This document shows positions 1,873 to 21,629 of a stretch of DNA of 46,039 nt, one piece after another. The translations under genes were made by a program, and so were the position numbers. How positions within the stretch are numbered: the first letter of the stretch is position 1; each line of letters opens with the position of its first letter. A model generated the notes under the pieces. It made no database searches. It saw only the letters and a list, made by a program, of their open reading frames with translations, and had not been told where the DNA came from. The stretch is taken from the sequence record OL362271.1; one strand, written 5' to 3'. This stretch comes from Klebsiella phage 6939.

Positions 1873-1896
1873 AGTTAAGTTACACAATAGAAGCAG
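1873..1896 (+). promoter_or_regulatory. Phage RNAP promoter, SP6-like (agttaagttacacaatagaagcag)
   Basis: Matches a 21-nt motif repeated 8 times in the window, and is close to the SP6 consensus ATTTAGGTGACACTATAGAAG. Lies in the intergenic gap after the terminase gene. Confidence 0.6.
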
Positions 1897-2059
1897 CTAC
1901 AGTAAGTACAATAAGTAACCGTAAGCTACTGTAAGCTACTATAAGCTGTTGTTAGCTTATGTAAGCTCTTTAGGGAGGGATATATCTCTCCTTATATCCC
2001 TCTCTCTTTTATAGGAGAGAATAGAGTACCTTTATAAACTAAATAGGAGATATATAAGT

Positions 2060-2335
2060 ATGCGTCCAATTACTGGTGATAACGCTAAGTCTATTAATAC
2101 CGTTGCAATGTCCCTGACTAACATCGGTATCGTTAAGCAATCTGAGCTGGAGGATATTAACCACATGATTAATATCAACCAGTACTCTCAGAAGCAGAAT
2201 GGCTCTGTAGTTTGTGTATGGCTGACTGCTGGAGACTTTGCTCTTGCAATGGCACAGGGTACTGACCCTTCAGCTTCTTGGAAAGTGATGGGTGATACCA
2301 ACTCTACTCCAGTTACTGAAATCCAGCCAGCTTAA
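2060..2335 (+). CDS. Hypothetical protein, 91 aa, own promoter and terminator
   Basis: ORF with AGGAGA upstream, bracketed by the promoter at 1873 and the terminator at 2342. Confidence 0.5.
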   Translation: MRPITGDNAKSINTVAMSLTNIGIVKQSELEDINHMININQYSQKQNGSVVCVWLTAGDFALAMAQGTDPSASWKVMGDTNSTPVTEIQPA

Positions 2336-2341
2336 TAATCT

Positions 2342-2368
2342 AGCCCTCTTAATTGAGGGCTTAATTTT
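2342..2368 (+). terminator. Intrinsic terminator-like stem-loop (agccctc-ttaatt-gagggct + T-run)
   Basis: 7-bp GC-rich stem with a 6-nt loop followed by taatttt. Nearly identical to the hairpins at 33116 and 23507. Confidence 0.5.
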
Positions 2369-2920
2369 ATGAAGATGCTGATACTGCTATTTGCACTCAT
2401 AAACCCTGTTCATGCAACACAGCAAGGTTTATCGGTACACTTAGAAACCAAGGAGGTTAAGGAGATGAACAAACGTCAGTTCATCAAGTATGTCATTGAG
2501 CCTACACTCAAAAAGCTAGGTTTATACAGTGAGTCAGCTACTAACCTACTGGTTATGATTGCAGCTCATGAATCAATGAAAGGACACTATATTGTCCAGA
2601 CCACTGGTCAGGCCAAGGGGCTCTTCCAAATGGAAGATGCTACCCATGACTATCTACTTGCATGGGTCAAGTCAAACAAGCCAGAGCTTTATAAGCTTAT
2701 TGTAGCTATGGGTGACAATGAACCTTCAGCAATGAAGATGGTAACAGACCTTGATTACGCAACTGCAATGGCTCGTGTATTCTTCCTACGCTTCCCAGAA
2801 GCGCTACCGTCAGGTAGCGACACCGACGCAATGGCAGCTTACGCCAAGCTACGTTGGAACACTAAGTTAGGGAAAGCTACACCAGCTGACTACAAGAATG
2901 CTTATCTGTCATGGAAGTAA
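2369..2920 (+). CDS. Secreted lytic transglycosylase-like lysin (SLT motif ES...GLFQ) with N-terminal signal peptide
   Basis: N-terminus MKMLILLFALINPVHA looks like a Sec signal peptide. AAHES followed 14 aa later by GLFQM matches the family-1 lytic transglycosylase catalytic motif spacing. Confidence 0.5.
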   Translation: MKMLILLFALINPVHATQQGLSVHLETKEVKEMNKRQFIKYVIEPTLKKLGLYSESATNLLVMIAAHESMKGHYIVQTTGQAKGLFQMEDATHDYLLAWVKSNKPELYKLIVAMGDNEPSAMKMVTDLDYATAMARVFFLRFPEALPSGSDTDAMAAYAKLRWNTKLGKATPADYKNAYLSWK

Positions 2921-3037
2921 CTTGTAGTGAATGGTGTTTAGCTAAGTGGCAGGAAGCTATTGAGGCTGGTGATGACTCATCAGCTAATAACTATATGCAA
3001 CTCTATGAGTTGTGGTCATCTCGTGAAGGAGGAAAGA

Positions 3038-3187
3038 ATGGGTAAGCTATTCAAGAATCGTAAAGTGATTCTTGCTTTTGTAGCTCTGCTAGTCACCCTT
3101 GTCTCTGTTGGTCTTGGTACTGACATGGGTAATGGTACTGCTGAAGCTATCACTGGCGTTATCTGTCAAGTAGTAACTTGTAGCTAA
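3038..3187 (+). CDS. Small single-TM membrane protein, 50 aa (holin/pinholin candidate)
   Basis: ATG preceded by GAAGGAGG. Hydrophobic segment VILAFVALLVTLVSVGLG. Sits immediately upstream of the spanin genes. Confidence 0.4.
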   Translation: MGKLFKNRKVILAFVALLVTLVSVGLGTDMGNGTAEAITGVICQVVTCS

Positions 3188-3399
3188 TGTCTAAACTACT
3201 GAGCATCGTATATGGTCTTCTGATGCTCCTTAAGTCTTGGCAAGTTAAGCAGGAGCAGACAGATGCACAAGAGCAAGCTAACAAGATTGATAAAGACCCT
3301 GTTGATTGGTTTAATGACCACTTTGACGGTGGCTTGCAGCAATCTGAATCAGCAGAAGCCAGCACCAGTAAAGCCACACATATCCGTGTACAGAAGTGA
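3187..3399 (+). CDS. i-spanin (Rz-like)
   Basis: N-terminal TM helix followed by a charged, Gln/Glu-rich periplasmic segment. Overlapped by a +1-frame lipoprotein ORF. Confidence 0.5.
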   Translation: MSKLLSIVYGLLMLLKSWQVKQEQTDAQEQANKIDKDPVDWFNDHFDGGLQQSESAEASTSKATHIRVQK

Positions 3400-3475
3400 T
3401 GGTAGTATGTGTATGCCTTTAGATGATGCTAGCAAACTTGGATTATACATCCTAGAACTAGAAAGAGGCTACTGA
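3263..3475 (+). CDS. o-spanin (Rz1-like lipoprotein) overlapping Rz in the +1 frame
   Basis: Signal peptide ending in the lipobox-like LTVAC, followed by a Pro-rich mature part (QQKPAPVKP). This is the classic overlapped Rz/Rz1 architecture. Confidence 0.45.
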   Translation: MHKSKLTRLIKTLLIGLMTTLTVACSNLNQQKPAPVKPHISVYRSDGSMCMPLDDASKLGLYILELERGY

Positions 3476-3535
3476 TTGTAGCCTTATAACTCATAGCCAT
3501 TCACAGTGAGTGGTTAGCAGTTATAAGGAGAGAAA

Positions 3536-5518
3536 ATGGCTAAGCTAACACGGGTATCTCAACCACTTGTAAAAGGCTACCCAGAGTCAACACTAGATAA
3601 GCAATTTGGTTCATTTGTTACTATTGAGTCTTTCTTAGATAGGGCTAATGGAGTTACTGAAGATGCCCTTGATTTGGCAATTGCGTATTGTCGTGATAAT
3701 GACTGTAAAGTTATTAAGCTAGAGTCTGGTAAGCGCTATGTACTTACAAAGACTCATAAGGTATACAGTAACATCACAATTATTGGTGATAGGGATAACA
3801 GATGGAATCTAGGATCAACAAGTTATGGCCCACCTGTAGGTGAGAGAGCTGATGCAGATGACCCATTTGATAGCTCTTTCATCTGGAAAGGTGCACAAGG
3901 AACTACGTGGTTTGATTGTGATTACCAAGTATCTTTCATTGGTATTGTGTTTGGGGCACCAGACCAGAACTGGGCTGCTACAACTTATGAGCAACTCCTT
4001 GATTATGGTATCTGCATTAAATCGAAGACCAATACCTTTGTATCCAACTGTACATACTACGGGATGAGACAGTTTGTAGATGCTACTGGACAGAATCAGG
4101 TATTCATGGATAACTGTGGTGCAGCTAGGGATGCAGATTACACTATTCGTGACTCACGAGACACTAACTACATTATCAACTGCCATAGTAATCCCGGTAT
4201 CACACGAGTAGCACTAGAGTATGCAAAAGCTGTTATCAACGCAAACAGCGTACTTGTTGACTTAATCAACCATGATGGCACCAGTATCCAAAACTGCACG
4301 ACGTTTGCTAAGCGTCTTGTATGTCGTAATGTTAACAACAGTACTTACTTAGGTCATGTTAACTTGGATATTGGTTTCTTTGACCAAGTTGGTGCTATTG
4401 TCGATAATAACACAGCTACAGCCTCAGCTATCAATGCTAGCAACCTTACAGCTATTGGTGGCTCATCATCTAAGCTCGGTGACCCTGTTGGTTCTGATTC
4501 TGGATTCTTTATCCTGCGTAGACAAGGTGTTACTCAGATTGCATCTGTTAACTTAAGTAATCTTAACCTGACACTTGCAGCATCGCCACTTACTACCCAT
4601 CCTGCGTTCTTGCTTAACTTCCAGATTAGTGAAGCTTATGCAATCAACTTATCTCAAGTATCTTGCCAAGCTACTACAGATAATGGGGCTGGTGTATTCT
4701 GTGCAATCAACGGTAGTGTAATCCAAGCTGCAAATACTTATGTAGCTAATCCAGTAAGGGAGAACTTTATACCTAATGCTGGTTGGGGTTGGCGTCATCC
4801 AATCAACAGCAATCCACGTGGTTGGACTCTCACTAACGTAAGTGTTGAATCACAGGCATCTCGTAGAGTTACTTCATCAGCTACTGGTGGCTACATCGGT
4901 ACTAAGTTCCGTCAGCTACTGGCTGGTAGAACATACATCTTCACAGCAACCTCTATTGGCTCATCAACAGGTGTAGATGTATTAAGTACTAACGATGCAG
5001 GTACAACTACAACTACACACTACGACTGGGTTCGTAGAGGTGGTAAGTACTATGCAACTGGATACATCTCAACAGAAGCTCGTACCCATGAGGTTCGTAT
5101 TAACTGTGGTAACACAGGCTCCTCTGTAGTATTTGAGTATGCTGCATGTGTTCCCGGAAGCATTACAACTTATGGTGACTCATATAATGAACGTCCACCT
5201 AAGTCTACTAGTACAGGTTTATCATCCTATCAAGTAGCTCTTAATGGTGGTGTAGCTCATGAGGTTTATCCTGATTATGCAGGTAAAGCAGGTGCTTATA
5301 CTCTTTATCTGTCATCAGACCAAGGTGCAGCTATCTTCACTCTTGTGAAGGCTACACCAACTACAGCAGCTGTAATCAACTCTGTAGCTACATCTTATGT
5401 AGGTTCAGAGACCTACTCTGTTAGTTGGCCTGATAATAGTAATCCTAGGTTTAATACTTCTGTGTCAGCAACTGTTACCTTAACACTTGTTGGTGCTGCT
5501 TACATCAGTGATATGTAG
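3536..5518 (+). CDS. Tailspike protein (right-end, beta-helix / depolymerase-type)
   Basis: 660 aa, Asn/Ser/Thr/Gly-rich repetitive composition typical of parallel beta-helix tailspikes. Strong RBS AAGGAGAGAAAATG. Sits after the terminase, as in SP6/K1-5-like phages. Confidence 0.7.
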   Translation: MAKLTRVSQPLVKGYPESTLDKQFGSFVTIESFLDRANGVTEDALDLAIAYCRDNDCKVIKLESGKRYVLTKTHKVYSNITIIGDRDNRWNLGSTSYGPPVGERADADDPFDSSFIWKGAQGTTWFDCDYQVSFIGIVFGAPDQNWAATTYEQLLDYGICIKSKTNTFVSNCTYYGMRQFVDATGQNQVFMDNCGAARDADYTIRDSRDTNYIINCHSNPGITRVALEYAKAVINANSVLVDLINHDGTSIQNCTTFAKRLVCRNVNNSTYLGHVNLDIGFFDQVGAIVDNNTATASAINASNLTAIGGSSSKLGDPVGSDSGFFILRRQGVTQIASVNLSNLNLTLAASPLTTHPAFLLNFQISEAYAINLSQVSCQATTDNGAGVFCAINGSVIQAANTYVANPVRENFIPNAGWGWRHPINSNPRGWTLTNVSVESQASRRVTSSATGGYIGTKFRQLLAGRTYIFTATSIGSSTGVDVLSTNDAGTTTTTHYDWVRRGGKYYATGYISTEARTHEVRINCGNTGSSVVFEYAACVPGSITTYGDSYNERPPKSTSTGLSSYQVALNGGVAHEVYPDYAGKAGAYTLYLSSDQGAAIFTLVKATPTTAAVINSVATSYVGSETYSVSWPDNSNPRFNTSVSATVTLTLVGAAYISDM

Positions 5519-5520
5519 TT

Positions 5521-5676
5521 ATGCCACTTATAAAATCAGTAAGTAAGAAAGCAGTTCATCAGAATACAGCTGAACTTATAGCAAGCGGTAGACCAGCTAA
5601 TCAAGCTTATGCTATCGCTAAGGATGTTCAACGTAACGCCAAGAAGCTTAAGAGGCCTTCTGGCACTGGAGGTTAG
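5521..5676 (+). CDS. Hypothetical basic protein, 51 aa (possible 5-prime part of a frameshifted gene)
   Basis: ATG overlaps the tailspike stop (TAGTTATG). The ORF continues in another frame as 5609-5851. Confidence 0.3.
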   Translation: MPLIKSVSKKAVHQNTAELIASGRPANQAYAIAKDVQRNAKKLKRPSGTGG

Positions 5677-5851
5677 TTTGTCACCTAAGAAGTTTTATGA
5701 GCTTATGATAGCTCAAGGTAGATTCATGACCATTAAGAATGATTGGCTAGTACTTGAGCCAACTGATGGACTATCAGCTCAAGAGATTATTTATCTAGCT
5801 AGTCATGGTAAAGAGTTGAAGGAATACGTTAAAACACAAGAAGCATCGTAA
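5609..5851 (+). CDS. Hypothetical protein, 80 aa (possibly 3-prime part of a frameshifted gene)
   Basis: ORF of the six-frame track with no clear RBS of its own. Last ORF before the non-coding end region. Confidence 0.3.
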   Translation: MLSLRMFNVTPRSLRGLLALEVSLSPKKFYELMIAQGRFMTIKNDWLVLEPTDGLSAQEIIYLASHGKELKEYVKTQEAS

Positions 5852-6719
5852 ACCTAAGAAGCTTACAGCAAGCTGCATTTAGTATCAGGGGCACTCTGTT
5901 ACTGGATAGCAGGCTACAGTCAACTCAAGTAGTTGGCTAGGTAGCTACCTGTAAGCTCCCTAGGAGTTAGAAATAGGTTGTGCAAGTAGCATAGCTCCTG
6001 CCTGCCTGCGTCTGCGACGTCCCCCATCGGGGTAGCTGACAATAGCTAGCAGGAAGCTTGCAGGTACTATTCAACTAGTACACTAGCACGCTGTAGCGGC
6101 TGGAAGCTGGCTAGGAGCTGCCGTAAGTAACGTAAGCTGTTGATTGTGTACTACTGTACTAGTACGCTTGATGCAGCTACGTGAAATCTGTGCAAGCCAG
6201 CAGGGCTGACAGTCACAACTTGCAAGCACAATCACTTACTGTACTCATGAACTAGTACGCTAACCAGTAGCTCACAGCAGCTGGCTAGGTAGCTTGTATC
6301 AGTTGGCTAGTACATGCAGTAGTGATAGCAGCTTTGTAGGCTGTACTATTGTACTAGTACACGGCTAGTGAGTGGCTTGTAAGTTCTATGTACTAGTAAA
6401 TTAGTACACGGCTGGGTGTATCTGTCTTTTGTTCTACCTACTCACAACTAGCTTATGGGTAGCTTACGATAGACTTACAACCTAGCTTACAGAGGCTTAC
6501 TAGGTAGCTTACAGTAGCTGACTAGGTAACTGCTGATAGCTTACTAGGGAGTTGATGAGAGCTGACTAGGTAGCTTACAGAAGCTTTCTTTATCCGGTCT
6601 ATGAAAGACCGGAAAGAGATAAGTACGATGCTAATTAAGTTACATAATAAGAAGAGGCTGTACTCCACATACACAAGCCACTAAGCCTATAGGCTACCAA
6701 TAACTAACGAGGAACTAAC
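5852..6719. repeat. Non-coding genome-end region with short-repeat arrays (TAGCTTAC, GTACTAGTAC(GCT), GCTGACTAGGTAGCTTACAG)
   Basis: 868 bp with no ORF over 60 aa and dense direct and partially palindromic short repeats. By synteny this is where the terminal repeat and left-end leader of a T7/SP6-like genome sit. Confidence 0.6.
6633..6657 (+). promoter_or_regulatory. Degenerate phage-promoter-like motif (aattaagttacataataagaagagg)
   Basis: Shares AATTAAGTTACA and GAAGAG with the promoter family but has a disturbed -5 to +1 region. Preceded by a GC hairpin at 6593-6613. Confidence 0.3.
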
Positions 6720-6902
6720 ATGAGTGTCACTAGGAACCTAAGAAGAGTCTGCAACTACTGTACGTGGTACAGCAGTATCAACGAAGCTGTGAGTGCTGTT
6801 GTCTACCATAAGAAGCTTACAAGAGGACAGCGCAAGCAATGGTTAAGGCTACCAGCCAGGAAGCGCAAACAACTTGTTATTAAGCATAGAAAGCAATGGT
6901 AA
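6720..6902 (+). CDS. Early hypothetical basic protein, 60 aa
   Basis: First ORF after the end region, with GAGG upstream. Arg/Lys-rich. Confidence 0.4.
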   Translation: MSVTRNLRRVCNYCTWYSSINEAVSAVVYHKKLTRGQRKQWLRLPARKRKQLVIKHRKQW

Positions 6903-6944
6903 CTACTTAACTATCAATAACTTACTAGGTAGCTTACATTGCTT

Positions 6945-6967
6945 CTTGTCTACTATAAGAGACAAAG
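6945..6967. repeat. Palindromic element TTGTCT-actataag-AGACAA (variant of the TTGTCTC family)
   Basis: 6-bp arms with an 8-nt spacer, in the early leader region. Confidence 0.5.
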
Positions 6968-7156
6968 TTATGTAAATCTATGTAAAGACGCTTGTTCCAG
7001 CTGTTGACAAGAGCTACATTTGTGTTGTCGGAAGCGACGTTAAACACTAAGTAGCTAACCTACTACGGGTTAGGCTCCAAGTGAGCGGTTAGCTACATGC
7101 TCTTTAACAATCTGGCTAGTGTCTTGATAGGCTTACTTAACTAACAGGTGACTATC

Positions 7157-9063: not shown

Positions 9064-9264
9064 ATGTTAGCTATTCCAACATTAGCGGCATTCATAGCAA
9101 TGCTGGTTATTATCTTTGGCTTATCAGCCATTCACTTTCACAGAGCTAAGAAGCTCTATAACGTCACACGCAAGGGTGACAACTGGGTTGTAAGAGATTG
9201 CAAAGGGCGCTTTGTGCGCATCACTAATAACTACTGGGACGTATGCAAGCTGGGGATTAACTAA
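9064..9264 (+). CDS. Small membrane protein, 67 aa
   Basis: ATG after TGAGGT. One TM helix (LAAFIAMLVIIFGLSAI) followed by a basic tail. Confidence 0.4.
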   Translation: MLAIPTLAAFIAMLVIIFGLSAIHFHRAKKLYNVTRKGDNWVVRDCKGRFVRITNNYWDVCKLGIN

Positions 9265-11158: not shown

Positions 11159-13843
11159 ATGTATACAGAAGAGCAGCTGATAGAAGAGCAAGTAAAGATT
11201 GAGCTAGATATGTATAACGATGGTTTGTATCGGTTCGATAAGAATAACCAGCGTCATATTGATTCGGGTAATCAGTCAGACACTGACTGGAACCGCCGTC
11301 TTATTAGCACTCTCGTAGAGCCTATGGCTGAAGGTGTAAGAGCTTATAGGGATTACTATAGTAAAGTTAACCCAGAGACGGGTAAACGCCGCACAGGTAG
11401 GCCGTCTAAGGGGTTGTCGTTAATTCGCGGTATGTCAGAGGAGCAAGTAGCTTATATAGCTATCAAAGTAATATTTGATGCTCTGGGTAATCATAAGTTT
11501 GATGCTAATTACCTTGTAACAACTATAGGCAGGAGAATAGAGGATCAATTACGCTTTGATAAGCTGGAGATGTCAGCACCTAAATATATTGAGAAGATTA
11601 AAGAGTCATTAGCTAAACGCAACTCAATAGACTACGACCATCAGCACAAAGTATTAGTATCTTCTGAGAAGAAATTAGCAGACCGAAATGCCGAGAAGGT
11701 GGCAACAGGGGAAGAATCCGAGATTACTATGCAGCGCTGGGTATCTTGGGCTGAGGAAGATTGCAAGCACGTAGGCTCATTGATGGTTAACATCTTTGAG
11801 AAGGCTGTAACCTTTGAGGGTAAGCCTATTATCGCTAAACAGATTACAGGTAGCGGTAAGACTATGAGAGCTTTCATAAGCCCTACTGAGCATGTGTGTA
11901 ACTGGATTGAGCGCTATAAGGAAGCTCTTGGCGGTTTGTCGCCAGCTTTCAGCCCTTGTGTCATCCCTCCGCGCGATTGGGTTAACCCTAACCACGGCGG
12001 CTACTATACCGATAAGCTTTCTGCAACCCTTCCACTGGTTAAGTTGCGTAATAAGCGTCATATGCGCAAGCTGACTAAGAAACAGATGCCGGAAGTGTAT
12101 GCAGCTGTAAACAGTTTGCAGCGTGTACGCTGGGCTATCAGTGAGCGCGTGTTAGCTACTGCAAATGAATTGATGGCTCTTGGCTTGCCGTATGCCTTGC
12201 CGTCAAAGAATCCTAGCGACTGGAAAGAACGCTACCCTTGCCCGGTTCCAGAGCATCTGGCAGACCTGAAAGGTGATGAGCTCAAGCAAGCCCTTAATCC
12301 TCAACAGCTGGAAGATTTTACAGAGTGGAAACAGATTGCACGTCAATCATATGAAGAGGAACAAGAGCGTGTAGCAAGTGTAAGAGAAGTTGTTAGCACT
12401 CTTGGGCAAGCTAACACTTACGTCAAATACCCAGCATTGTACTTTGTATATACTCTTGACTTCCGTGGGCGTGTCTACTGCATGAGCTCACGTGTGTCTC
12501 CACAAGGTGGCGACTTACAGAAAGCTTTAATCAAGTTTGCTGATGGTATGGCACTTGGTACAACTGGTGAATATTGGTTTAAAGTACACGGCGCTAACGA
12601 GTGGGGCTGGGATAAGAAGCCTATGGATGAGCGTGTATCCAATGTAAGCACTGAAGAGTTTAAAACAATGTGCAAGGATATTGCAGATGACCCAGTTACT
12701 TTTAACGACTGGATTCATGCTGATAAACCTTGGCAATTCCTAAACTGGTGCTTTGAGTATGCTGACTTCTTACGTCACGTGGAATCAGGTGGCAACCCAG
12801 AGGATTTTGTAAGCTATATTCCTTGTGCAATGGATGGCAGCTGCTCAGGGATTCAGCACTACTCAGCTATGCTACGTGATAGAGTTGGCGGAGCTGCTGT
12901 AAACCTTACTTACTCATCAGAGGATGGCCCACAGGATATATATGGGGCTGTGTGCAAGATTGTACTTAAGAAGCTCACAGAAATTGCTGAGGGCTATGGT
13001 GTTTATGAGGGCAAACTAGATGCCTCCTTAGCTATTGAGCTGGCTAAAGAGTGGCTGCGACTACAACCAAATCGCAGCTTAACTAAGAAGCCAGTAATGA
13101 CGTTACCGTATGGCAGCACACAGCTAACCTGTCGTGAGCATGTGAGCCAGTGGCTGAAAGATTTACAGAAGGAAGAGAACAAGACAGCCAAGGCAGAATT
13201 CCGAGAGCCTATGAAGGTTCACGCTTTTGGTGACAAGTCATCTTCTATGCCGCTTATCCATGCTGAGACTTTCATGAGCTCACTGGTGTGGTCATCAATC
13301 GGTGAGGTAGTTGTAGCAGCTCGTAGCGGTATGAAGTACATCAAAGCTATTACAACCTCAGTTGCTAAAGCTAACATGCCGCTTGAGTGGACTACTCCAA
13401 CAGGCTTTGTTGTACGCCAAGAGATTTACGAGATGGCTGACCGTCGCATCAAGACGCAGCTTATGGGTACTACAGTCTTTATTAAGCAGGAGAAAACAGA
13501 CAAGATTAACTATCACCGAATGGTTAACAGCTGTGCGCCCAACTTTGTACACTCTATGGATGCAAGCCACTTGGTGAAAGCTACTAATGCTTTTGTAGAT
13601 GCTGGTATCAGTAGCATCGCGGTGATTCATGACAGCTTTGGTACACATGCTGGTAACACTTACATCCTACGTAAGCAGTTGCCAAATTCTATGGTTGACA
13701 TGTACACAGAGCATGATGTTATTAGCAACTTCTTGCAAGAGGTGGAAGCTAAGACGCTGTTAGATTTAAGCCACATCAAGATTCCAGAAGCTGGTAGCTT
13801 GGAGCTTCAGGAAATCAATCAATCAACTTATGCATTTGCTTGA
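11159..13843 (+). CDS. Single-subunit DNA-directed RNA polymerase (T7/SP6-type)
   Basis: 894 aa, with the catalytic motif C HDSFGTHA near the C-terminus and a C-terminal YAFA-type foot. Preceded by TAAGG N5 ATG. Confidence 0.95.
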   Translation: MYTEEQLIEEQVKIELDMYNDGLYRFDKNNQRHIDSGNQSDTDWNRRLISTLVEPMAEGVRAYRDYYSKVNPETGKRRTGRPSKGLSLIRGMSEEQVAYIAIKVIFDALGNHKFDANYLVTTIGRRIEDQLRFDKLEMSAPKYIEKIKESLAKRNSIDYDHQHKVLVSSEKKLADRNAEKVATGEESEITMQRWVSWAEEDCKHVGSLMVNIFEKAVTFEGKPIIAKQITGSGKTMRAFISPTEHVCNWIERYKEALGGLSPAFSPCVIPPRDWVNPNHGGYYTDKLSATLPLVKLRNKRHMRKLTKKQMPEVYAAVNSLQRVRWAISERVLATANELMALGLPYALPSKNPSDWKERYPCPVPEHLADLKGDELKQALNPQQLEDFTEWKQIARQSYEEEQERVASVREVVSTLGQANTYVKYPALYFVYTLDFRGRVYCMSSRVSPQGGDLQKALIKFADGMALGTTGEYWFKVHGANEWGWDKKPMDERVSNVSTEEFKTMCKDIADDPVTFNDWIHADKPWQFLNWCFEYADFLRHVESGGNPEDFVSYIPCAMDGSCSGIQHYSAMLRDRVGGAAVNLTYSSEDGPQDIYGAVCKIVLKKLTEIAEGYGVYEGKLDASLAIELAKEWLRLQPNRSLTKKPVMTLPYGSTQLTCREHVSQWLKDLQKEENKTAKAEFREPMKVHAFGDKSSSMPLIHAETFMSSLVWSSIGEVVVAARSGMKYIKAITTSVAKANMPLEWTTPTGFVVRQEIYEMADRRIKTQLMGTTVFIKQEKTDKINYHRMVNSCAPNFVHSMDASHLVKATNAFVDAGISSIAVIHDSFGTHAGNTYILRKQLPNSMVDMYTEHDVISNFLQEVEAKTLLDLSHIKIPEAGSLELQEINQSTYAFA

Positions 13844-14701: not shown

Positions 14702-14733
14702 GGCGGTTCCTACGGGAGCCGCCTTTATTTTAT
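14702..14733 (+). terminator. Intrinsic terminator (ggcggttcc-tac-gggagccgcc + tttattttat), early-region terminator
   Basis: 9-bp GC-rich stem (one G-U pair) plus a 10-nt T-rich tract. Lies between the early/RNAP block and the replication block, like T7 TE. Confidence 0.7.
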
Positions 14734-14786
14734 CCGTCTTGTACTAGTTAAGTAGTACGCTTGTTGAGAATTATTATCATCTAAGT

Positions 14787-14835: not shown

Positions 14836-14886
14836 TCTTTAAAATCTGACCAGCGACGGCTACCAAACTGCTACAGATTTTAAAGA
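14836..14886. promoter_or_regulatory. AT-rich perfect 13-bp inverted repeat (tctttaaaatctg N25 cagattttaaaga), origin-like
   Basis: Read directly from the sequence. Sits between the early terminator and the phage promoter at 14897. Confidence 0.5.
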
Positions 14887-14896
14887 TTTTCTGCGA

Positions 14897-14923
14897 TTAA
14901 TTAAGTGACGCAATAGAAGCAAT
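14897..14923 (+). promoter_or_regulatory. Phage RNAP promoter, SP6-like (attaattaagtgacgcaatagaagcaa)
   Basis: TAAGTGACGCAATAGAAG is closest of all copies to the SP6 consensus TTAGGTGACACTATAGAAG. Confidence 0.6.
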
Positions 14924-15023
14924 CTCAGTAAGTATTAGTAAGTTACCGTAAGCTTACAGAAGCTTAGTAGCTTACATAGCTATAGAGGTTAACCCTCTAT
15001 CCCTCTAGGGATAGGGTAATAAG

Positions 15024-15043
15024 TTGTCTCCTATAAGAGACAA
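15024..15043. repeat. Palindromic element TTGTCTC-ctataa-GAGACAA
   Basis: Identical copy at the end of the second promoter-repeat module. Confidence 0.6.
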
Positions 15044-15085
15044 GATAAGTAGCACAATAGATTAATAAACCTATGGAGCTGTAAG

Positions 15086-15268: not shown

Positions 15269-17299
15269 ATGTCTGTAGTAATGAATCTGCCATGCCCTGA
15301 GTGTCAGAAGAATGGAGCTGACAAACGTGGTCAGTATCTTATGGTGTTTGAGGATGGCGGTAAGCTTTGTATCCATACACATAACCACGATAGCCGCGAG
15401 CGCTACTATGTAGCTCCTGATGGTAAAGATCCCGTATTCGATCGTGAGATTGATGGCAAGGTACAGTACAACGCAGCTCAGTTTAATCAGCTGGTAGCTG
15501 ATGGCAAGATTAAGGATGAGTTTACTAGGCAGCTAGCATTGTCTGGTATGCGCATGAAGGACAGGTACGAAGTCTTCACAGAAGAAGAGCGTAATCAGAT
15601 TGAGGCTGAGTGGGCTATGGATGTTGCATGGTTCGAGCAGCTAAGCTATCGCTCCTTGGAAGACCGAGCAATTCATGGAGCTATTGCCAAGTTCTATGAC
15701 GTGAGAGTAGGTCATGATGAGCATGGAAAGATTAATAGGCACTACTATCCAGTTCACACTCGTGAAGATATGTCACTAGTAGGTGCTAAAGCTCGTACAC
15801 TTCCAAAGGATTTTGCTTTCGGGCATCTTGGTAGAAGGTTTGGTGATGACTTAGCACTCTTTGGTATGCATACAACTCAGAAGGTGATGGACTCAGGAAC
15901 TTTCCGTAAGGGTAAGATGGGTAAGCTTCTTGTAGTCGGCGGTGAGTGTGATGCTATGGCAGCTCAACAGATGCTGGTTAAATCAATCAATAAGCTGGAT
16001 ACATTACAAGGTATTAAGTCTCTTGATGGGCTTAAGCTTGTACACGTATGGTCACCTACTAAGGGTGAGACTTGCTTGGATGAGATTGTAGCTAACCGTG
16101 AGTATCTTGATGCTTTCGAAGAGATTGTTTGGGGCTTTGACAATGATGATGTAGGCAACAAGCTTAACTTAGCATGTGCCAAGTTGTTCCGTCAGAAGAG
16201 TAAGTTTATTGTATACCCAAGCGGTTGCAAAGATGCTAACCAATGCCTCAAAGAAGGTAGAGATAAAGAGTTTGTTGATGCATGGTGGCAACCTGTGGAG
16301 GCTCGTGTCAAAGGTAAGCTTAAGGCAGCTTCTAGTTATGCTGACATTGCCAAGAAGATTACCAAGAACGGACTAAGTTACTTCATCCCAGAGCTCAACC
16401 CTATTACCTTTGGTGTACGCTTAAGCTACTTGGGTGTATGGGGAGCTGGTACAGGTGTTGGTAAGACAGAGATGACTACTAGTCACATCTGTAAGTTGAT
16501 AGAGCAGGGTAAGCCAGTTGTAGCAATCTACTTAGAGAACAGTCCTGATGAAGTTCTTAAGATGGTTGCCAGTCGCATAGCTAACAAGGACTTTATGAGT
16601 CCACCTTATGACCCAGATGACCCAGATGATGTTTACTCAGCATCTAGGGATTACACATGGCAAGAGTTAAGTGACACAATAGATGCTCTAGTTGCGTCTA
16701 ATCTCCTGTTCATACCAGAGCTTGAAGGGAGCAAGGATGTTACTGTCATTATGGAAGTAATGGAAGATGCGTTAGCTCTTGGTTACCAGTACTTTGTAGT
16801 AGATAACTTGACAGCTTTTGAACACCATGTAGATGGTAAAGTTCAAGTAGGTGTTAATGCTATTGATGAAACTATGAAACGTATGGGTACATTCAAAGAT
16901 GAGCATCCGGTTAATATCATGCTTCTTACTCACCTAACAAGACCAGAGAAGGGACGCATACCGCATGAGTTAGGTGGTGAGGTATTCATTACTGACTTCC
17001 GTGGTGCTGGCTCTATTAGCTTCTGGGCTAATGGTGCATGGGGTATTGAACGAAATACACAAGCAGCATCTATCCAAGACAAATGCACAACACTTATTCG
17101 TAACCTTAAGTCACGTGGTGTTGGTCATAAGGTTGGTAACACTGTAGTCATCAGGAAGATTCTTGACACTGGTGAGTATGAGGTACTGGATGGTGTTCAT
17201 GAGCTACCGCAAGTGGGTCGTGAGAAGAAAGACAAGCAGTCATCAGCTAGTAGGCAGATGGCAGATAATTTTATTGACGAAGCAGATGAGGAATTCTGA
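15269..17299 (+). CDS. DNA primase/helicase (T7 gp4-like)
   Basis: N-terminal Cys4 zinc ribbon (CPECQK...C..H), a TOPRIM region and a C-terminal helicase with Walker A GAGTGVGKT. Acidic C-terminus DEADEEF. Confidence 0.92.
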   Translation: MSVVMNLPCPECQKNGADKRGQYLMVFEDGGKLCIHTHNHDSRERYYVAPDGKDPVFDREIDGKVQYNAAQFNQLVADGKIKDEFTRQLALSGMRMKDRYEVFTEEERNQIEAEWAMDVAWFEQLSYRSLEDRAIHGAIAKFYDVRVGHDEHGKINRHYYPVHTREDMSLVGAKARTLPKDFAFGHLGRRFGDDLALFGMHTTQKVMDSGTFRKGKMGKLLVVGGECDAMAAQQMLVKSINKLDTLQGIKSLDGLKLVHVWSPTKGETCLDEIVANREYLDAFEEIVWGFDNDDVGNKLNLACAKLFRQKSKFIVYPSGCKDANQCLKEGRDKEFVDAWWQPVEARVKGKLKAASSYADIAKKITKNGLSYFIPELNPITFGVRLSYLGVWGAGTGVGKTEMTTSHICKLIEQGKPVVAIYLENSPDEVLKMVASRIANKDFMSPPYDPDDPDDVYSASRDYTWQELSDTIDALVASNLLFIPELEGSKDVTVIMEVMEDALALGYQYFVVDNLTAFEHHVDGKVQVGVNAIDETMKRMGTFKDEHPVNIMLLTHLTRPEKGRIPHELGGEVFITDFRGAGSISFWANGAWGIERNTQAASIQDKCTTLIRNLKSRGVGHKVGNTVVIRKILDTGEYEVLDGVHELPQVGREKKDKQSSASRQMADNFIDEADEEF

Positions 17300-19046: not shown

Positions 19047-21629
19047 ATGTTTAAATTCTGGCCTTTCATGTATGAAGATGGCAAGTCGCCACTAAGTGGT
19101 GTTGGTCGCTTCTTGGTAGCTGATATTGAGTCTCGTGGCTTACTTCGAGTTACCAGAGAGGCTAGCGATTTGCATATTATTACTATTGAAGATTATTTCA
19201 CAGGTGAGCAGTTCGTATTTTTCGATCCCTATGAGAAGCGTAAGAATCCTACAGAGCTACCAACTTGGGAAGGTGACCAAGATGGCTATATAGCTGATGG
19301 GGTTAAGATGCTTATGGAGGCTGAAGGTCTTAGCTTCCAGAACGCCGTAGGGTTTGATGGACTTGTACTAGAGAGATGCTTCCCTTGGTTCAAGTTTGAT
19401 TGGTTAGGTTCTCGTAAGCACAAGAAGCATACAGACATCTTCCCATTCAACCACATGGATACAATGGTTGTCAGTCAGCTTACATATCCTGACCGTCCAC
19501 TTGACCATAAGGCTTACAGCTTAGGCCTTGGTAACACAGGTGCGCATAGTATCGCAGCTCATGGTATCCGCATGGGTCGCCATAAGCCAGAGCATGAGGA
19601 TTGGTCAACCCTCACAGAAGATATGATTCACCGTAACCGAGAGGACGTTTCAATCGGTAAGGATTACTTACGGTATCTGATGGAGGGTGATTGGGCTGAC
19701 CAAGTTGCCAGAGGTGCTAACAAGCATACTGGTTTCACAATCCATGAAGCTTACAGAATGGAACAGCAAGTAGCTTTCATGATTGCACGTCAGGAGCAGC
19801 GTGGTTTCCGGTTTGATATGCATCAAGCTTGGGAAGACTACAAAACTATTGATAGTGACATGGAATCTATTAGCGCAGCTGTAGAGCCGTACATACCATT
19901 GAGACTTGTGACTGACCCATACAACTTCCAGAGGCTTAAGCAGCGTTATGATTCTGCTATCAAGAATCTTGACATAAGCCACTGGGGTGTTTGGTTCAAG
20001 CTCAATAAAGATGAGTACCTTAAAGGTATCTTCAATGAGATTCACAGGACTATGAGTATGAAGTCAGAGGACTTTAAACGCATTGGTACTTGTGCAACTC
20101 AATGGAAGCTTACAACAGCTAAGGGTGACTGGAGCAAGGCACTACAGAAAGTATACCCAGAGATGCGTGGCAACATTAATGATACACCAGACCCTCTGGT
20201 AGCTGGGCCATTCACACCCTTAACATTTGAGCAGCTGGGCTTAGGTTCTCTTGATTATGTCAAGGAGAAAGTTCTATGGCCTCGTGGTTGGATTGGAATC
20301 AACTACTCTGATTCAGAAGAGGAATGGATTAACGAGCATGGTGAACCTCGTTACCCTTGGTCTGGTAAGATTGATGATGACTCACTGAAAGCTTGGAAGA
20401 ACAGACAAGAGATACCAGAGTGGGCTGAGAAGATAGTTAACTACTATATCTTACGTTCACGCCGTTCAGTTATTGTGAACAAAGGTGACATTGAGAAGTT
20501 CAATAAGAATGGTGAGTGGCCTAAGCAGAAGAACGGTAAGCATGAATGTCGTGGCTTGCTGGCAGTTGCCTATAACAAAGAGTATGACCTAACAGGTGGA
20601 GAGTACTATGCTAAGTTTAAGGAGTGGCCTACCTCCGATGAAGAAGAGTGGCGTGTACCTGCTGCTGCTTTCTCCATTGGAACGAATACGTTCCGTATGC
20701 GACACAGGTTTGTTGTCAACATACCAGCACGTGGACTATTCCCACTACGCCATCTATTTATCGCTCGCAAAGGCTACAAGATACTTGGATGTGACGGGGC
20801 AGGGCTTGAGCTACGAATGCTTGCACACTTTATGGCAGATGCTGTCTACCAAGAGATTATACTGCATGGCGACATCCATACACACAACCAGCTCAAGGCA
20901 GGATTGCCTACACGAGATATGGCGAAGACTTTCATATACGCATTTCTCTATGGCTCAGGTGTTGGTGGACTCGCTAGATTGGCTGGCATTACCATTGCTG
21001 AAATGGAATCTTGCATATCAAGATTTAAAGCAGAACTTCCAGCACTGGCAACACTGATTGACCGATGTGAGCAAGCTGGTCGTAAGTTTGGTTATCTCCA
21101 AGCTATTGATGGTCGCTGGGGTCGTATCCGTAAGAAGGGTGGCAAGCTTATTATGCACACTGCACTTAACGTGTTGCTTCAGATGACTGGCTCATTAGTC
21201 ATGAAGTATGGTGAGTGCATCGCTGAAGACAATATGATTAAGGAAGGAGTAGCACTTGATGAGTTTGGGTATCCAGCTTTCGTGGCTAACGTACATGATG
21301 AAGTACAAATGGAAGTGCCTGAAGATGAAGTTGATAGCATGGAGTATGAGCTTGCATATACTCTTGAAGGTTTCCCTGATGAACGGAAAGCTATCAAAGC
21401 TGTTTGGGATGTGGAAGAGAAACGCGCACACACAGATGAGCAAGGTAGAAAGTGGAGTGCTCCTTGTAAGCTTAGCGCTGCTGATGGGGTCATTCGTGTT
21501 AGCAGGAGTTATCATCGAGCTGGTCACATACTTATGGACGCTTTCGAAGCTGCTGGGGTAATGTTCAAGATGCGGTGCCCTCTTGCTGGTGAATATAAGG
21601 TGGGTAATAGTTGGGCTGATACACACTAA
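19047..21629 (+). CDS. DNA polymerase (family A, T7 gp5-like) with 3-prime to 5-prime exonuclease domain
   Basis: Exo I motif LVADIES, motif A DGAGLELR, motif B RDMAKTFIYAFLYG and motif C VHDEVQ. Confidence 0.93.
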   Translation: MFKFWPFMYEDGKSPLSGVGRFLVADIESRGLLRVTREASDLHIITIEDYFTGEQFVFFDPYEKRKNPTELPTWEGDQDGYIADGVKMLMEAEGLSFQNAVGFDGLVLERCFPWFKFDWLGSRKHKKHTDIFPFNHMDTMVVSQLTYPDRPLDHKAYSLGLGNTGAHSIAAHGIRMGRHKPEHEDWSTLTEDMIHRNREDVSIGKDYLRYLMEGDWADQVARGANKHTGFTIHEAYRMEQQVAFMIARQEQRGFRFDMHQAWEDYKTIDSDMESISAAVEPYIPLRLVTDPYNFQRLKQRYDSAIKNLDISHWGVWFKLNKDEYLKGIFNEIHRTMSMKSEDFKRIGTCATQWKLTTAKGDWSKALQKVYPEMRGNINDTPDPLVAGPFTPLTFEQLGLGSLDYVKEKVLWPRGWIGINYSDSEEEWINEHGEPRYPWSGKIDDDSLKAWKNRQEIPEWAEKIVNYYILRSRRSVIVNKGDIEKFNKNGEWPKQKNGKHECRGLLAVAYNKEYDLTGGEYYAKFKEWPTSDEEEWRVPAAAFSIGTNTFRMRHRFVVNIPARGLFPLRHLFIARKGYKILGCDGAGLELRMLAHFMADAVYQEIILHGDIHTHNQLKAGLPTRDMAKTFIYAFLYGSGVGGLARLAGITIAEMESCISRFKAELPALATLIDRCEQAGRKFGYLQAIDGRWGRIRKKGGKLIMHTALNVLLQMTGSLVMKYGECIAEDNMIKEGVALDEFGYPAFVANVHDEVQMEVPEDEVDSMEYELAYTLEGFPDERKAIKAVWDVEEKRAHTDEQGRKWSAPCKLSAADGVIRVSRSYHRAGHILMDAFEAAGVMFKMRCPLAGEYKVGNSWADTH

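What the first reader, a model, noticed from the sequence alone, without database searches (positions are those of the whole stretch)
1873..2025. Composite promoter / GTAAGCTAC-repeat / palindrome module after the terminase gene (candidate right-end origin, T7 phiOR analogue)
The promoter at 1873-1896 is followed by a run of GTAAGCT(A/T)AC-type repeats (1897-1970). GTAAGCTTAC is itself a palindrome. Next comes a GA/CT-rich 10-bp-stem palindrome, agggagggatata...tatatccctctct (1972-2005), and a second hairpin, tctctc-ttttatag-gagaga (2001-2020). The same promoter-repeat-palindrome architecture recurs at 14897-15045. In T7 the primary origin lies just downstream of the phi1.1A/B promoters after gene 1, and a secondary origin is associated with phiOR after gene 19 (terminase). 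The positions here match those two T7 origin locations.
Basis: partly seen in the sequence, partly recalled or inferred. Interest (0 to 1): 0.6.

Follow-up and report, generated by a model that had tools for sequence, protein, structure and literature searches.

The report
Promoter–repeat–hairpin modules of a T7-like phage
Two of this T7-like phage's own promoters are each followed by a run of about seven 10-base repeats and a hairpin; the pair is conserved at the same two genome positions in relatives as distant as SP6 and is a plausible but unproven replication-start element like those of T7.

Summary
The window is a circularly joined genome of an SP6/T7-supergroup podophage (nearest relative: Klebsiella phage KL01). 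An SP6-like phage promoter (1875-1891, +1 at G1890) is followed by 7.4 copies of a 10-bp unit (GTAAGCTAC type), a 13-bp-stem hairpin with a T-run, and a second hairpin. The same architecture recurs at 14901-15043. The two arrays are similar beyond the promoter (z 6.8). None of the other seven strong promoter matches has a periodic downstream sequence.

Both modules sit at the same two positions (after the RNA polymerase/early terminator, and after terminase) in KL01, Reminis, Nufs112, ECBP5, PP99, Tola, SP6 and K1-5. Promoter specificity differs among these phages.

The 'right end' label is wrong. Nine ORFs of 50 aa or more (about 4 kb; in relatives lysis and tailspike genes) follow module A. 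The terminal repeat maps by homology to about 5997-6419. It is flanked by the same repeat unit and followed by a third promoter-like site, a phiOL analogue.

The best reading is T7-style 'replication promoter' modules, confidence about 0.4. Function is inferred only. The AT-rich feature of the T7 origin is weak here and GC skew is uninformative. Leader or non-coding RNA roles and protein-binding roles remain open.

The parts
1875..1891 (+). Phage-RNAP promoter A (TTAAGTTACACAATAGA). The inferred start is G1890, and the transcript begins GAAGCA.
   Evidence: 0 mismatches to the window's promoter consensus. Repeat families D1, D5 and D6. SP6-like sequence (SP6 promoters).
1895..1967 (+). Array A: about 7 tandem 10-bp units (AGTAAGTAC, ATAAGTAAC, GTAAGCTAC x2, ATAAGCTGT, GTTAGCTTA, GTAAGCTCT). 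Units 5 and 6 form a small inverted pair.
   Evidence: TRF period 10, 7.4 copies. Periodicity z 6.3 against the genome background. Copy number differs in KL01 and Reminis.
1972..2005 (+). Hairpin A1: AGGGAGGGATATA / TATATCCCTCTCT with loop TCTCTCCT, followed by CTTTTAT (terminator-like).
   Evidence: 13 pairs. 95-98% identical in KL01 and Reminis. In Nufs112-type phages both arms differ from the window's and still pair.
2001..2020 (+). Hairpin A2: TCTCTC-TTTTATAG-GAGAGA. It resembles the TTGTCTC-CTATAAG-AGACAA hairpin family.
14702..14730 (+). Strong intrinsic terminator (GGCGGTTCC-TACG-GGAGCCGCC then TTTATTTT) closing the early/RNAP region. It is the analogue of the T7 early terminator.
   Evidence: Top-ranked terminator-like site. 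Conserved in KL01, Reminis, Nufs112, ECBP5, PP99, Tola, SP6 and K1-5.
14740..14766 (.). GTACTAG...CTAGTAC-type palindrome upstream of module B. The same family lies inside the terminal repeat.
   Evidence: Repeat family D9. Local alignment with 6385-6407, z 4.1.
14836..14886 (.). AT-rich 13-bp inverted repeat TCTTTAAAATCTG ... CAGATTTTAAAGA just upstream of promoter B1.
   Evidence: Direct reading. Conserved in KL01 and Reminis.
14901..14917 (+). Promoter B1 (TTAAGTGACGCAATAGA). The inferred start is G14916, and the transcript begins GAAGCA as in module A.
   Evidence: 2 mismatches to the consensus.
14925..14980 (+). Array B: about 6 units at 8-10 bp spacing (AGTAAGTAT, AGTAAGTTAC, GTAAGCTTAC, AGAAGCTTA, GTAGCTTAC, ATAGCTAT). 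The later units are inverted, so the array folds on itself.
   Evidence: 95-98% identical to KL01 and Reminis, against 79-90% for the neighbouring polymerase genes.
14982..15043 (+). Three hairpins: ATAGAGG-TTAAC-CCTCTAT (14982-15000), CTATCCCT-CT-AGGGATAG (14997-15014) and TTGTCTC-CTATAA-GAGACAA (15024-15043).
   Evidence: 97-100% identical to KL01 and Reminis. The only Reminis difference in the first hairpin lies in its loop.
15045..15061 (+). Promoter-like site B2 (TAAGTAGCACAATAGA) directly before the first middle gene (15086).
   Evidence: 3 mismatches. Identical in KL01 and Reminis. A second promoter sits at the same place in ECBP5, PP99, Tola and K1-5.
5997..6419 (.). Inferred direct terminal repeat, present as one copy in this circular join. 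It starts CCTGCCTGCC and carries a TCCCCCATCGGGG hairpin. It ends just before ATCTGTC (6420-6426), a match to the T7 concatemer-junction signal ATCTGTT.
   Evidence: Homology with the verified 410-bp repeat of Nufs112. The same right edge is seen in Tola, SP6, K1-5 and T7.
6450..6586 (-). Array next to the terminal repeat. The units are CTAGGTAGCTTACAG, that is GTAAGCTAC read on the minus strand. It is the positional analogue of the T7 short-repeat array to the right of the left terminal repeat.
   Evidence: TRF period 22, 6.2 copies. 14 of the 55 GTAAGCTAC-type hits lie in 5852-7130.
6635..6651 (+). Promoter-like site (TTAAGTTACATAATAAG) after the array and a conserved hairpin (6594-6616). 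It is the positional analogue of T7 phiOL.
   Evidence: 3 mismatches. Conserved in KL01 and Reminis.

Best explanation
The two modules are conserved non-coding control elements built around special phage-RNA-polymerase promoters. They are the counterparts, in this phage lineage, of T7's 'replication promoters': phi1.1A/B (the primary origin) and phiOR.

Proposed mechanism, by analogy with T7:
1. The phage polymerase starts at G1890 or G14916 and transcribes a roughly 80-nt periodic array and then one or more stable hairpins.
2. The short, structured, partly terminated transcript (or the R-loop it leaves) is taken over by the phage DNA polymerase as a primer for rightward synthesis.
3. The primase-helicase loads on the displaced + strand to start the leftward fork.

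The same repeat unit flanks the terminal repeat and precedes a third promoter-like site at the left end. The unit is therefore most likely a cis-acting DNA signal, read by a phage-encoded factor, that is shared by replication initiation and end processing.

Shown: the anatomy, its specificity to two promoters, the conservation, and the positions.
Inferred: priming, any bound factor, and any link to the genome ends.
For: 1. Only these two promoter matches are followed by periodic sequence (z 6.3 and 3.0; the other seven range from -1.7 to 0.8), and both start GAAGCA.
2. The same holds in Nufs112, ECBP5, Tola, SP6 and K1-5 (module promoters z 2.8-5.7), always at the post-RNAP and post-terminase promoters. 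SP6 and K1-5 have a third such promoter after the DNA polymerase gene. In Reminis the periodicity score is weak (z 1.9 and 1.7; one ordinary promoter also reaches 1.9), but its arrays are plain on reading. KL01 and PP99 were read directly.
3. The positions equal those of T7 phi1.1A/B and phiOR. Module B follows the early terminator.
4. The transcript from the first B promoter is not needed for gene expression. A second promoter lies between the module and the gene in the window, KL01, Reminis, ECBP5, PP99, Tola and K1-5. In ECBP5 and PP99 an intrinsic terminator separates the two promoters.
5. Purifying selection: the B array and hairpins are 95-100% identical to KL01 and Reminis. Their own promoter is 75-86% identical, and the RNAP, primase and DNAP genes are 79-90% identical.
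6. The unit stays (A/G)TAAGCT(A/T) while promoter specificity changes: AAGTTACACAATAG, GGCACTACAATAG, CACTCACAATAG. It is therefore not a polymerase specificity element.
7. The unit is about 13-fold enriched around the terminal repeat. In Nufs112 a 49-bp stretch upstream of the B promoter is a paralogue of a stretch inside the verified terminal repeat (z 11.4).
8. Hairpin A1 keeps its pairing although both arms differ between the window type and the Nufs112 type.
Against: - There is no direct evidence of initiation.
- The T7 origin's AT-rich unwinding stretch is only weakly matched: 64-67% AT, and neither array is among the 20 most AT-rich 60-bp windows.
- Cumulative GC skew has no inflection.
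- A purine-rich transcript would favour stable R-loops. That skew is strong in SP6, K1-5 and Tola but absent from the window's arrays (0.54, equal to the genome mean).
- T7 itself needs no repeats or initiator at its origin, and no DNA-binding protein candidate was found (Pfam and PHROGs gave nothing).
- Promoter A is also the only promoter match ahead of the roughly 4 kb of ORFs at 2060-5851, so it has an ordinary expression role as well.
Confidence: 0.4

Rival explanations
1. RNA-level element. The array plus hairpins is a 5' leader or a free-standing small RNA of about 130 nt. It would stabilise, process or regulate transcripts, or titrate an RNA-binding factor, with no role in replication.
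For: - Unit orientation relative to the promoter is fixed in every module read.
- The leaders fold better than shuffles (z -2.9 and -5.4). Module B folds better on the transcribed sense than on the opposite strand (-44.2 against -37.4 kcal/mol). Several stems use G-U pairs, which exist only on the + strand.
- Hairpin A1 with its T-run, and the terminator in ECBP5 and PP99, would release short RNAs.
- The related TTGTCTC-CTATAAG-AGACAA hairpin occurs 7 times, all on the + strand.
- T7 has an RNase III site between phi1.1A and phi1.1B (established knowledge).
Against: - No Rfam family matches.
- Module A shows no strand asymmetry in folding.
- The same unit occurs in the opposite orientation and in mixed orientations around the terminal repeat, away from any promoter start.
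- The unit is built on a palindrome (GTAAGCTTAC), which suggests recognition as duplex DNA.
- The stems are too short for classical RNase III sites.
Confidence: 0.25
2. Protein-binding arrays for end processing or packaging. The helically phased units would be wrapped by a phage protein such as the small terminase subunit, or would slow the phage polymerase, in the way T7 concatemer processing depends on transcription from phiOR and on pausing at the junction.
For: - Spacing of 9-10 bp is kept across phages.
- The unit is palindrome-based and concentrated on both sides of the terminal repeat.
- Promoter A is the last promoter before the junction. A T7-like ATCTGT signal sits exactly at the repeat's right edge in the window, Nufs112, Tola, SP6, K1-5 and T7.
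- The DTR-like palindrome and, in Nufs112, a 49-bp DTR paralogue lie upstream of module B.
Against: - Internal copies 4 kb and 9 kb from the ends would be pointless or harmful as packaging sites.
- No binding protein has been identified.
- In T7 the function of the end-flanking short repeats is itself unknown (own knowledge).
Confidence: 0.2
3. Clusters of primase recognition sites on the strand that becomes single-stranded. This would be the + strand downstream of the internal promoters and the minus strand next to the left end.
For: - The orientation pattern fits: + strand in modules A and B, minus strand at 6267-7051.
- T7's own end-flanking arrays carry the known T7 primase sites in just this orientation. 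GACCA (TGGTC on the minus strand) occurs three times at 290-330. TGGTC, GTGTC and GGGTC lie on the + strand at 39650-39715 (read; primase specificity from own knowledge).
Against: - The primase specificity of this lineage is unknown.
- SP6 primase is reported to recognise 5'-GCA-3' (own recollection). The SP6 post-RNAP and post-terminase arrays read contain no GCA on either strand.
Confidence: 0.05
4. No dedicated function. The modules would be slippage-prone tandem duplications and conserved promoter-plus-stem-loop 'linkers' that persist because they mediate recombination between gene cassettes.
For: - Array A varies in copy number between close relatives.
- The locus just downstream of module A is variable. 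A head-fibre or tail-knob gene is present in KL01, Nufs112, ECBP5, PP99 and Tola but absent here.
Against: - The pair is conserved at two fixed positions across genera. Array B is more conserved than the essential genes around it.
- Periodicity is restricted to the same promoters in seven genomes.
Confidence: 0.1

Closest known systems
T7 primary origin of replication (promoters phi1.1A and phi1.1B plus a downstream AT-rich region, between genes 1 and 1.1)
   Same: It lies after the RNA polymerase gene and before the DNA-metabolism genes. It has tandem rightward phage promoters with a hairpin between them, and a small basic protein gene follows.
   Different: T7 has no 10-bp tandem array. Its downstream region is much more AT-rich. 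In T7 the early terminator lies downstream of the origin, whereas here it lies 170 bp upstream. The 57-aa protein after module B is not detectably related to T7 gp1.1 (E 0.62).
T7 phiOR (secondary origin, also required for concatemer processing)
   Same: It is the first promoter after the large terminase gene and the last one before the concatemer junction.
   Different: T7 phiOR lies about 0.55 kb from the terminal repeat, with one small gene between. Here nine ORFs of 50 aa or more and 4.1 kb intervene. T7 has no array after phiOR.
T7 short-repeat arrays flanking the terminal repeat (unit CCTAAAG) and the junction signal ATCTGTT
   Same: Short units repeated on both sides of and inside the terminal repeat. 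A CCCCCAT-GGGG hairpin lies near the left end. ATCTGT lies at the repeat's right edge.
   Different: The unit sequence differs (GTAGCTTAC). In this lineage the unit is also placed in phased arrays behind two internal promoters. T7 shows only faint CTTAAG/CTTAAAG echoes after phi1.1B and phiOL.
SP6 and K1-5 post-RNAP and post-terminase promoter regions
   Same: The architecture is the same at the same two sites: early terminator, promoter, about 7 units at 9-10 bp, then a pyrimidine-rich hairpin. After the RNAP gene a second promoter follows.
   Different: The unit is ATAGGTAA/CTTAGGTTA, purine-rich and C-poor. A third array follows the DNA polymerase gene. I could not check whether the SP6 and K1-5 genome papers describe this.
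Iteron-type origins (lambda ori, theta plasmids)
   Same: Several direct repeats phased with the DNA helix, next to inverted repeats and a moderately AT-rich stretch.
   Different: The units are half the usual length. No initiator gene is evident. The arrays lie inside a transcription unit directly behind a promoter.

Membership tests
T7-type transcription-primed origin | One or more rightward phage-RNAP promoters not needed for expression of the next gene | tested here: met
   Module B has B1 at 14901 and a second promoter-like site at 15045 directly before the gene. ECBP5 and PP99 have a terminator between the two.
T7-type transcription-primed origin | Located between the RNA polymerase gene and the DNA-replication genes | tested here: met
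   RNAP 11159-13843, module B 14901-15043, primase-helicase 15269-17299. T7 layout.
T7-type transcription-primed origin | Strongly AT-rich unwinding region just downstream of the promoters | tested here: not met
   Arrays and hairpins are 63-67% AT against a genome mean of 57% (sd 5.5). Neither array falls in the 20 most AT-rich 60-bp windows; the two windows near module A (1836-1895, 2003-2062) lie outside the array.
T7-type transcription-primed origin | Primase recognition sites on the displaced strand | not testable with these tools
   The primase specificity of this lineage is unknown.
T7-type transcription-primed origin | DNA synthesis demonstrably starts there | not testable with these tools
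   GC skew is uniformly positive with no inflection. This is uninformative because all genes share one strand.
T7 phiOR-type right-end promoter | First promoter after the large terminase gene and last promoter before the concatemer junction | tested here: met
   terL ends at 1848 and the promoter is at 1875. The next promoter-like match is at 6635, beyond the terminal repeat.
T7 phiOR-type right-end promoter | Lies within a few hundred bases of the right terminal repeat | tested here: not met
   The terminal repeat is inferred at 5997-6419. ORFs at 2060-5851 lie between.
Iteron origin with a cognate initiator | Three or more direct repeats phased with the helix | tested here: met
   Period 10 and 7.4 copies. 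Spacings of 9-10 bp across phages.
Iteron origin with a cognate initiator | Initiator or DNA-binding protein encoded nearby | tested here: inconclusive
   Ten small neighbouring ORFs have no Pfam family. PHROGs gives only families of unknown function.
Hairpin-plus-U-run transcription terminator | Stable hairpin followed by a U-run | tested here: met
   Module A only: 13 pairs followed by CTTTTAT. The module B hairpins have no U-run.
Described RNA families (Rfam 15) | Match at the gathering score | tested here: not met
   0 matches in the whole window.

The most novel reading that the evidence does not exclude
The periodic unit is a lineage-specific 'address' shared by three kinds of site: the two or three special internal promoters, the flanks of the terminal repeat, and the left-end promoter. 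It would be read by one still unidentified phage factor, or would act through the short transcripts themselves pairing with the oppositely oriented end arrays. This would couple replication initiation to duplication and processing of the genome ends across the SP6-like half of the Autographiviridae. It would also give a function to the long-unexplained short repeats next to the T7 ends.
Probability: 0.2. Interest if true: 0.7.

Novelty: new variant of a known kind. Interest (0 to 1): 0.5.

Why it matters
Replication origins have been mapped experimentally only in T7 itself. For the much larger SP6-like and Gajwadongvirus-like groups, which are widely used in phage therapy and as sources of RNA polymerases, no origin is defined.

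A sharply delimited and strongly conserved module, found at the two places where T7 has its replication promoters, gives a precise target of about 150 bp for deletion, marker-frequency and RNA-end experiments. Sharing of the repeat unit with the flanks of the terminal repeat also offers a handle on the unexplained short repeats next to T7-group genome ends.

If instead the modules encode short regulatory RNAs, they would be a conserved class of non-coding RNA made by a single-subunit phage polymerase.

Tried and rejected
1. Repeats as upstream half-sites of the promoter. TAAGTTAC occurs both in the window's promoter and in a repeat unit. Rejected: ECBP5, PP99, Nufs112 and Tola have different promoter sequences but the same unit.
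2. AGCT enrichment as something special. AGCT is the most over-represented tetranucleotide (3.6 times the base-composition expectation). The ratio is 1.06 against a trinucleotide Markov model, and the excess follows codon frame.
3. GC-skew origin mapping. Uninformative.
4. Purine-rich transcript favouring R-loops. True for SP6, K1-5 and Tola but not for the window.
5. A 6-mer test that each phage's module unit is specifically enriched in its own terminal region. Clear for the window and Nufs112 (4-6 fold). Not clean for SP6, and SP6's TAGGTA also occurs in the window's end arrays. I therefore do not claim strict co-variation across lineages.
6. A position-weight-matrix scan. The registers were mixed and it is not used.
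7. Homology of the 57-aa basic protein after module B to T7 gp1.1 or SP6 gp9. None detected.
8. Pattern scans of IMG/VR for more relatives. Only two Nufs112-like contigs were relevant.
9. Literature. Papers on PP99, Tola, Nufs112 and phi80-18 do not mention the repeats. The SP6 genome paper is not held. A search for the T7 short-repeat arrays found nothing relevant.
10. Pfam on ten neighbouring small ORFs and Rfam on the whole window. No hits.

Full report
WHAT THE WINDOW IS

All long ORFs are on the + strand. The window begins inside a large terminase gene and is about 89% identical to Klebsiella phage KL01. More distant matches are Reminis, Pantoea phage Nufs112 and the Gajwadongvirus phages ECBP5 and PP99.

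Gene order follows KL01:
- terL, 1-1848
- a set of nine ORFs of 50 aa or more, annotated in relatives as lysis and tailspike genes, 2060-5851
- a non-coding stretch of about 870 bp
- early genes
- RNA polymerase, 11159-13843
- primase-helicase, 15269-17299
- DNA polymerase, 19047-21629
- structural genes

The window is therefore a whole genome of an SP6/T7-supergroup podophage, joined into a circle and opened in terL.

THE OBSERVATION

The promoter at 1875-1891 (TTAAGTTACACAATAGA) is one of nine strong matches to a motif found only on the + strand. It closely resembles the SP6 promoter, which puts the start at G1890.

Tandem Repeats Finder reports 1895-1967 as 7.4 copies of a 10-bp unit. GTAAGCTAC with up to one mismatch occurs 55 times in the window, against 16.2 +/- 4.3 in shuffles.

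The hairpin at 1972-2005 has 13 pairs and is followed by CTTTTAT. It ranks third among terminator-like sites in the first 16 kb. The second hairpin (2001-2020) is present but overlaps the first by 5 nt.

The second module is also real:
- promoter at 14901-14917
- array at 14925-14980
- hairpins at 14982-15000, 14997-15014 and 15024-15043

With the promoters excluded, the two arrays align with a score of 39, against 18.1 +/- 3.1 for shuffles (0 of 500). Array A scores only 11-13 against the downstream regions of six other promoters. The hairpin segments share architecture but not sequence.

SPECIFICITY

None of the other seven strong promoter matches is followed by 9-11-nt periodic sequence (module promoters z 6.3 and 3.0; the other seven -1.7 to 0.8). 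The two module promoters also share the initial transcribed sequence GAAGCA.

WHERE THE GENOME ENDS ARE

Nufs112 has an experimentally verified 410-bp direct terminal repeat. Its first bases are CCTGCCTGCC...TCCCCCATTGGGG. The bases around its right edge are ...GCTGT|ATCTGTC. Both have clear counterparts in the window at 5997 and at 6419|6420.

The same right edge (ATCTGTT, the T7 concatemer-junction signal) bounds the repeats of Tola, SP6, K1-5 and T7.

Module A is therefore 4.1 kb upstream of the right terminal repeat, not at the right end.

The terminal region is full of the same unit. Of the 55 GTAAGCTAC-type hits, 14 fall in 5852-7130, which is about 13 times the density elsewhere. Those at 6267-7051 all lie on the minus strand. 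A 22-bp-period array occupies 6450-6586. It is followed by a conserved hairpin and a promoter-like site at 6635, which is conserved in KL01 and Reminis. This is the positional analogue of the T7 left-end short repeats plus phiOL.

CONSERVATION

Both modules occur at the same two positions in all eight relatives examined:
- KL01 and Reminis
- Nufs112
- ECBP5 and PP99
- Tola
- SP6, with a different unit (ATAGGTAA/CTTAGGTTA)
- K1-5, with the same different unit

Among the six genomes scored besides the window, the post-RNAP and post-terminase promoters stand out for downstream periodicity in five (z 2.8-5.7). SP6 and K1-5 add a third after the DNA polymerase gene. Reminis is the exception: its two module promoters score only z 1.9 and 1.7, and one ordinary promoter also reaches 1.9, although its arrays are plain on reading.

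Within the Gajwadongvirus-like group the unit stays (A/G)TAAGCT(A/T) while promoter specificity changes. The unit is therefore not a polymerase recognition element.

Against KL01 and Reminis, identities are as follows:
- module B array and hairpins: 95-100%
- module B's own promoter: 75-86%
- RNAP, primase-helicase and DNAP genes: 79-90%
- hairpin A1: 95-98%
- array A: changes in copy number (7, about 6, about 5 units)

Hairpin A1 keeps its pairing although both arms differ between the window type and the Nufs112 type.

CONTEXT OF MODULE B

Reading from left to right:
- a strong intrinsic terminator (14702-14730, the top-ranked site)
- a GTACTAG...CTAGTAC palindrome of the family found inside the terminal repeat
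- a copy of the TTGTCTCCTATAAGAGACAA hairpin
- an AT-rich 13-bp inverted repeat
- promoter B1
- the array and hairpins
- a second promoter-like site directly before the first middle gene

ECBP5 and PP99 have an additional intrinsic terminator between the module and the second promoter. There the first promoter makes a short non-coding transcript.

In Nufs112 a 49-bp stretch upstream of the module is a paralogue of a stretch inside the verified terminal repeat (z 11.4).

COMPARISON WITH T7

T7 has phi1.1A/B directly after gene 1, phiOR directly after gene 19, and phiOL at the left end. It is established knowledge that the primary origin lies at phi1.1A/B, that phiOR and phiOL act as secondary origins, and that phiOR and the junction pause take part in concatemer processing. 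phiOL is also credited with polymerase-driven genome entry (PMC6171733).

The three special sites of the present phage map one-to-one onto these.

The differences are these:
- T7 has no phased arrays.
- The T7 origin is strongly AT-rich, whereas the arrays here are 64-67% AT against a 57% mean.
- phiOR is close to the end.
- The early terminator lies on the other side of the origin.

GC skew is uniformly positive and uninformative.

MECHANISM

I commit, at about 0.4, to T7-style replication-promoter modules. A short, structured transcript or R-loop from G1890 or G14916 would prime rightward DNA synthesis. The primase-helicase would load on the displaced + strand. The shared unit would act as a cis DNA signal common to initiation sites and end regions.

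The rivals are:
- an RNA-level leader or small RNA (0.25)
- protein-binding arrays for packaging or pausing (0.2)
- recombination linkers or slippage products with no function (0.1)
- primase-site clusters (0.05)

Evidence that bears on the rivals:
- Folding supports a structured + strand for module B (z -5.4 against -2.25 for the opposite strand) but not asymmetrically for module A.
- No Rfam family and no Pfam domain in ten neighbouring small ORFs was found.
- The gene after module A belongs to phrog_2725, as in SP6, K1-5, ECBP5, PP99 and Tola.
- The basic 57-aa protein after module B (18 K+R) is not detectably related to T7 gp1.1.

NOVELTY

The kind of element, promoter-dependent origin-like sites of T7-group phages, is known. 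The phased array plus hairpin is not part of the T7 paradigm. Nor are its restriction to the same promoters in several genera and its sharing of a unit with the flanks of the terminal repeat. None of this is mentioned in the papers on PP99, Tola, Nufs112 or phi80-18 that I could read.

I could not read the SP6 and K1-5 genome papers, so prior description there cannot be excluded. I rate the finding a new variant of a known kind, with interest 0.5.

Noticed in passing
window 5997-6426: Inferred direct terminal repeat of about 423 bp, collapsed to one copy in this circular join. It has a T7-like CCCCCAT-GGGG hairpin near its left edge and ATCTGTC immediately after its right edge. The same ATCTGT edge is seen in Nufs112, Tola, SP6, K1-5 and T7.
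   Followed up: partly
window 6946, 10588, 14787, 15024, 17772, 22906, 40329: A 20-nt hairpin, TTGTCTC-CTATAAG-AGACAA, occurs 7 times against 0 expected, always on the + strand. Two copies sit immediately upstream of promoters (15045 and 22929). One overlaps a ribosome-binding site (17772). One lies inside a large virion gene. This recalls the promoter-plus-stem-loop cassettes of T4-type phages. Its function is unknown.
   Followed up: partly
window, whole: ATCTGTT, the class II pause/termination signal of T7 RNA polymerase, occurs 2 times on the transcribed-sense (+) strand and 10 times on the minus strand. This suggests selection against it in the sense strand.
   Followed up: no
window, whole: GATC is almost absent: 15 sites, 0.09 of the base-composition expectation and 0.08 of the Markov expectation. 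Avoidance of Dam sites is known for enterobacterial T7-group phages.
   Followed up: no
window 6063-6413 and 14740-14766; L005 107-155 vs 9187-9235: GTACTAG(N)CTAGTAC palindromes cluster inside the terminal repeat, and one lies upstream of module B. In Nufs112 a 49-bp palindrome-plus-CGCTACGTGAAATCTGAG stretch of the terminal repeat has a paralogue upstream of module B (z 11.4).
   Followed up: partly
window 2026-2060 vs L001 2039-2488: The window lacks the head-fibre or tail-knob gene that KL01, Nufs112, Tola, ECBP5 and PP99 carry between module A and the phrog_2725 gene. The locus just downstream of the module is a variable cassette site.
   Followed up: no
L011 12545-12630; L027 12583-12670: SP6 and K1-5 have a third promoter followed by a periodic ATAGGTAA-type array (z 3.3), located after the DNA polymerase gene. 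The window's promoter at the equivalent place (21630) has no array.
   Followed up: no
L006 (T7) 241-340 and 39650-39715: T7's short-repeat arrays next to its terminal repeats carry the known T7 primase recognition pentamers in end-directed orientation. GACCA x3 and GACCC lie on the + strand at the left, which reads TGGTC and GGGTC on the minus strand. TGGTC, GTGTC and GGGTC lie on the + strand at the right. These were read by eye and were not counted against a background.
   Followed up: partly
window, whole: AGCT is the most over-represented tetranucleotide: 606 sites, 3.6 times the base-composition expectation. It is fully explained by trinucleotide content and codon frame (Markov ratio 1.06).
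   Followed up: yes
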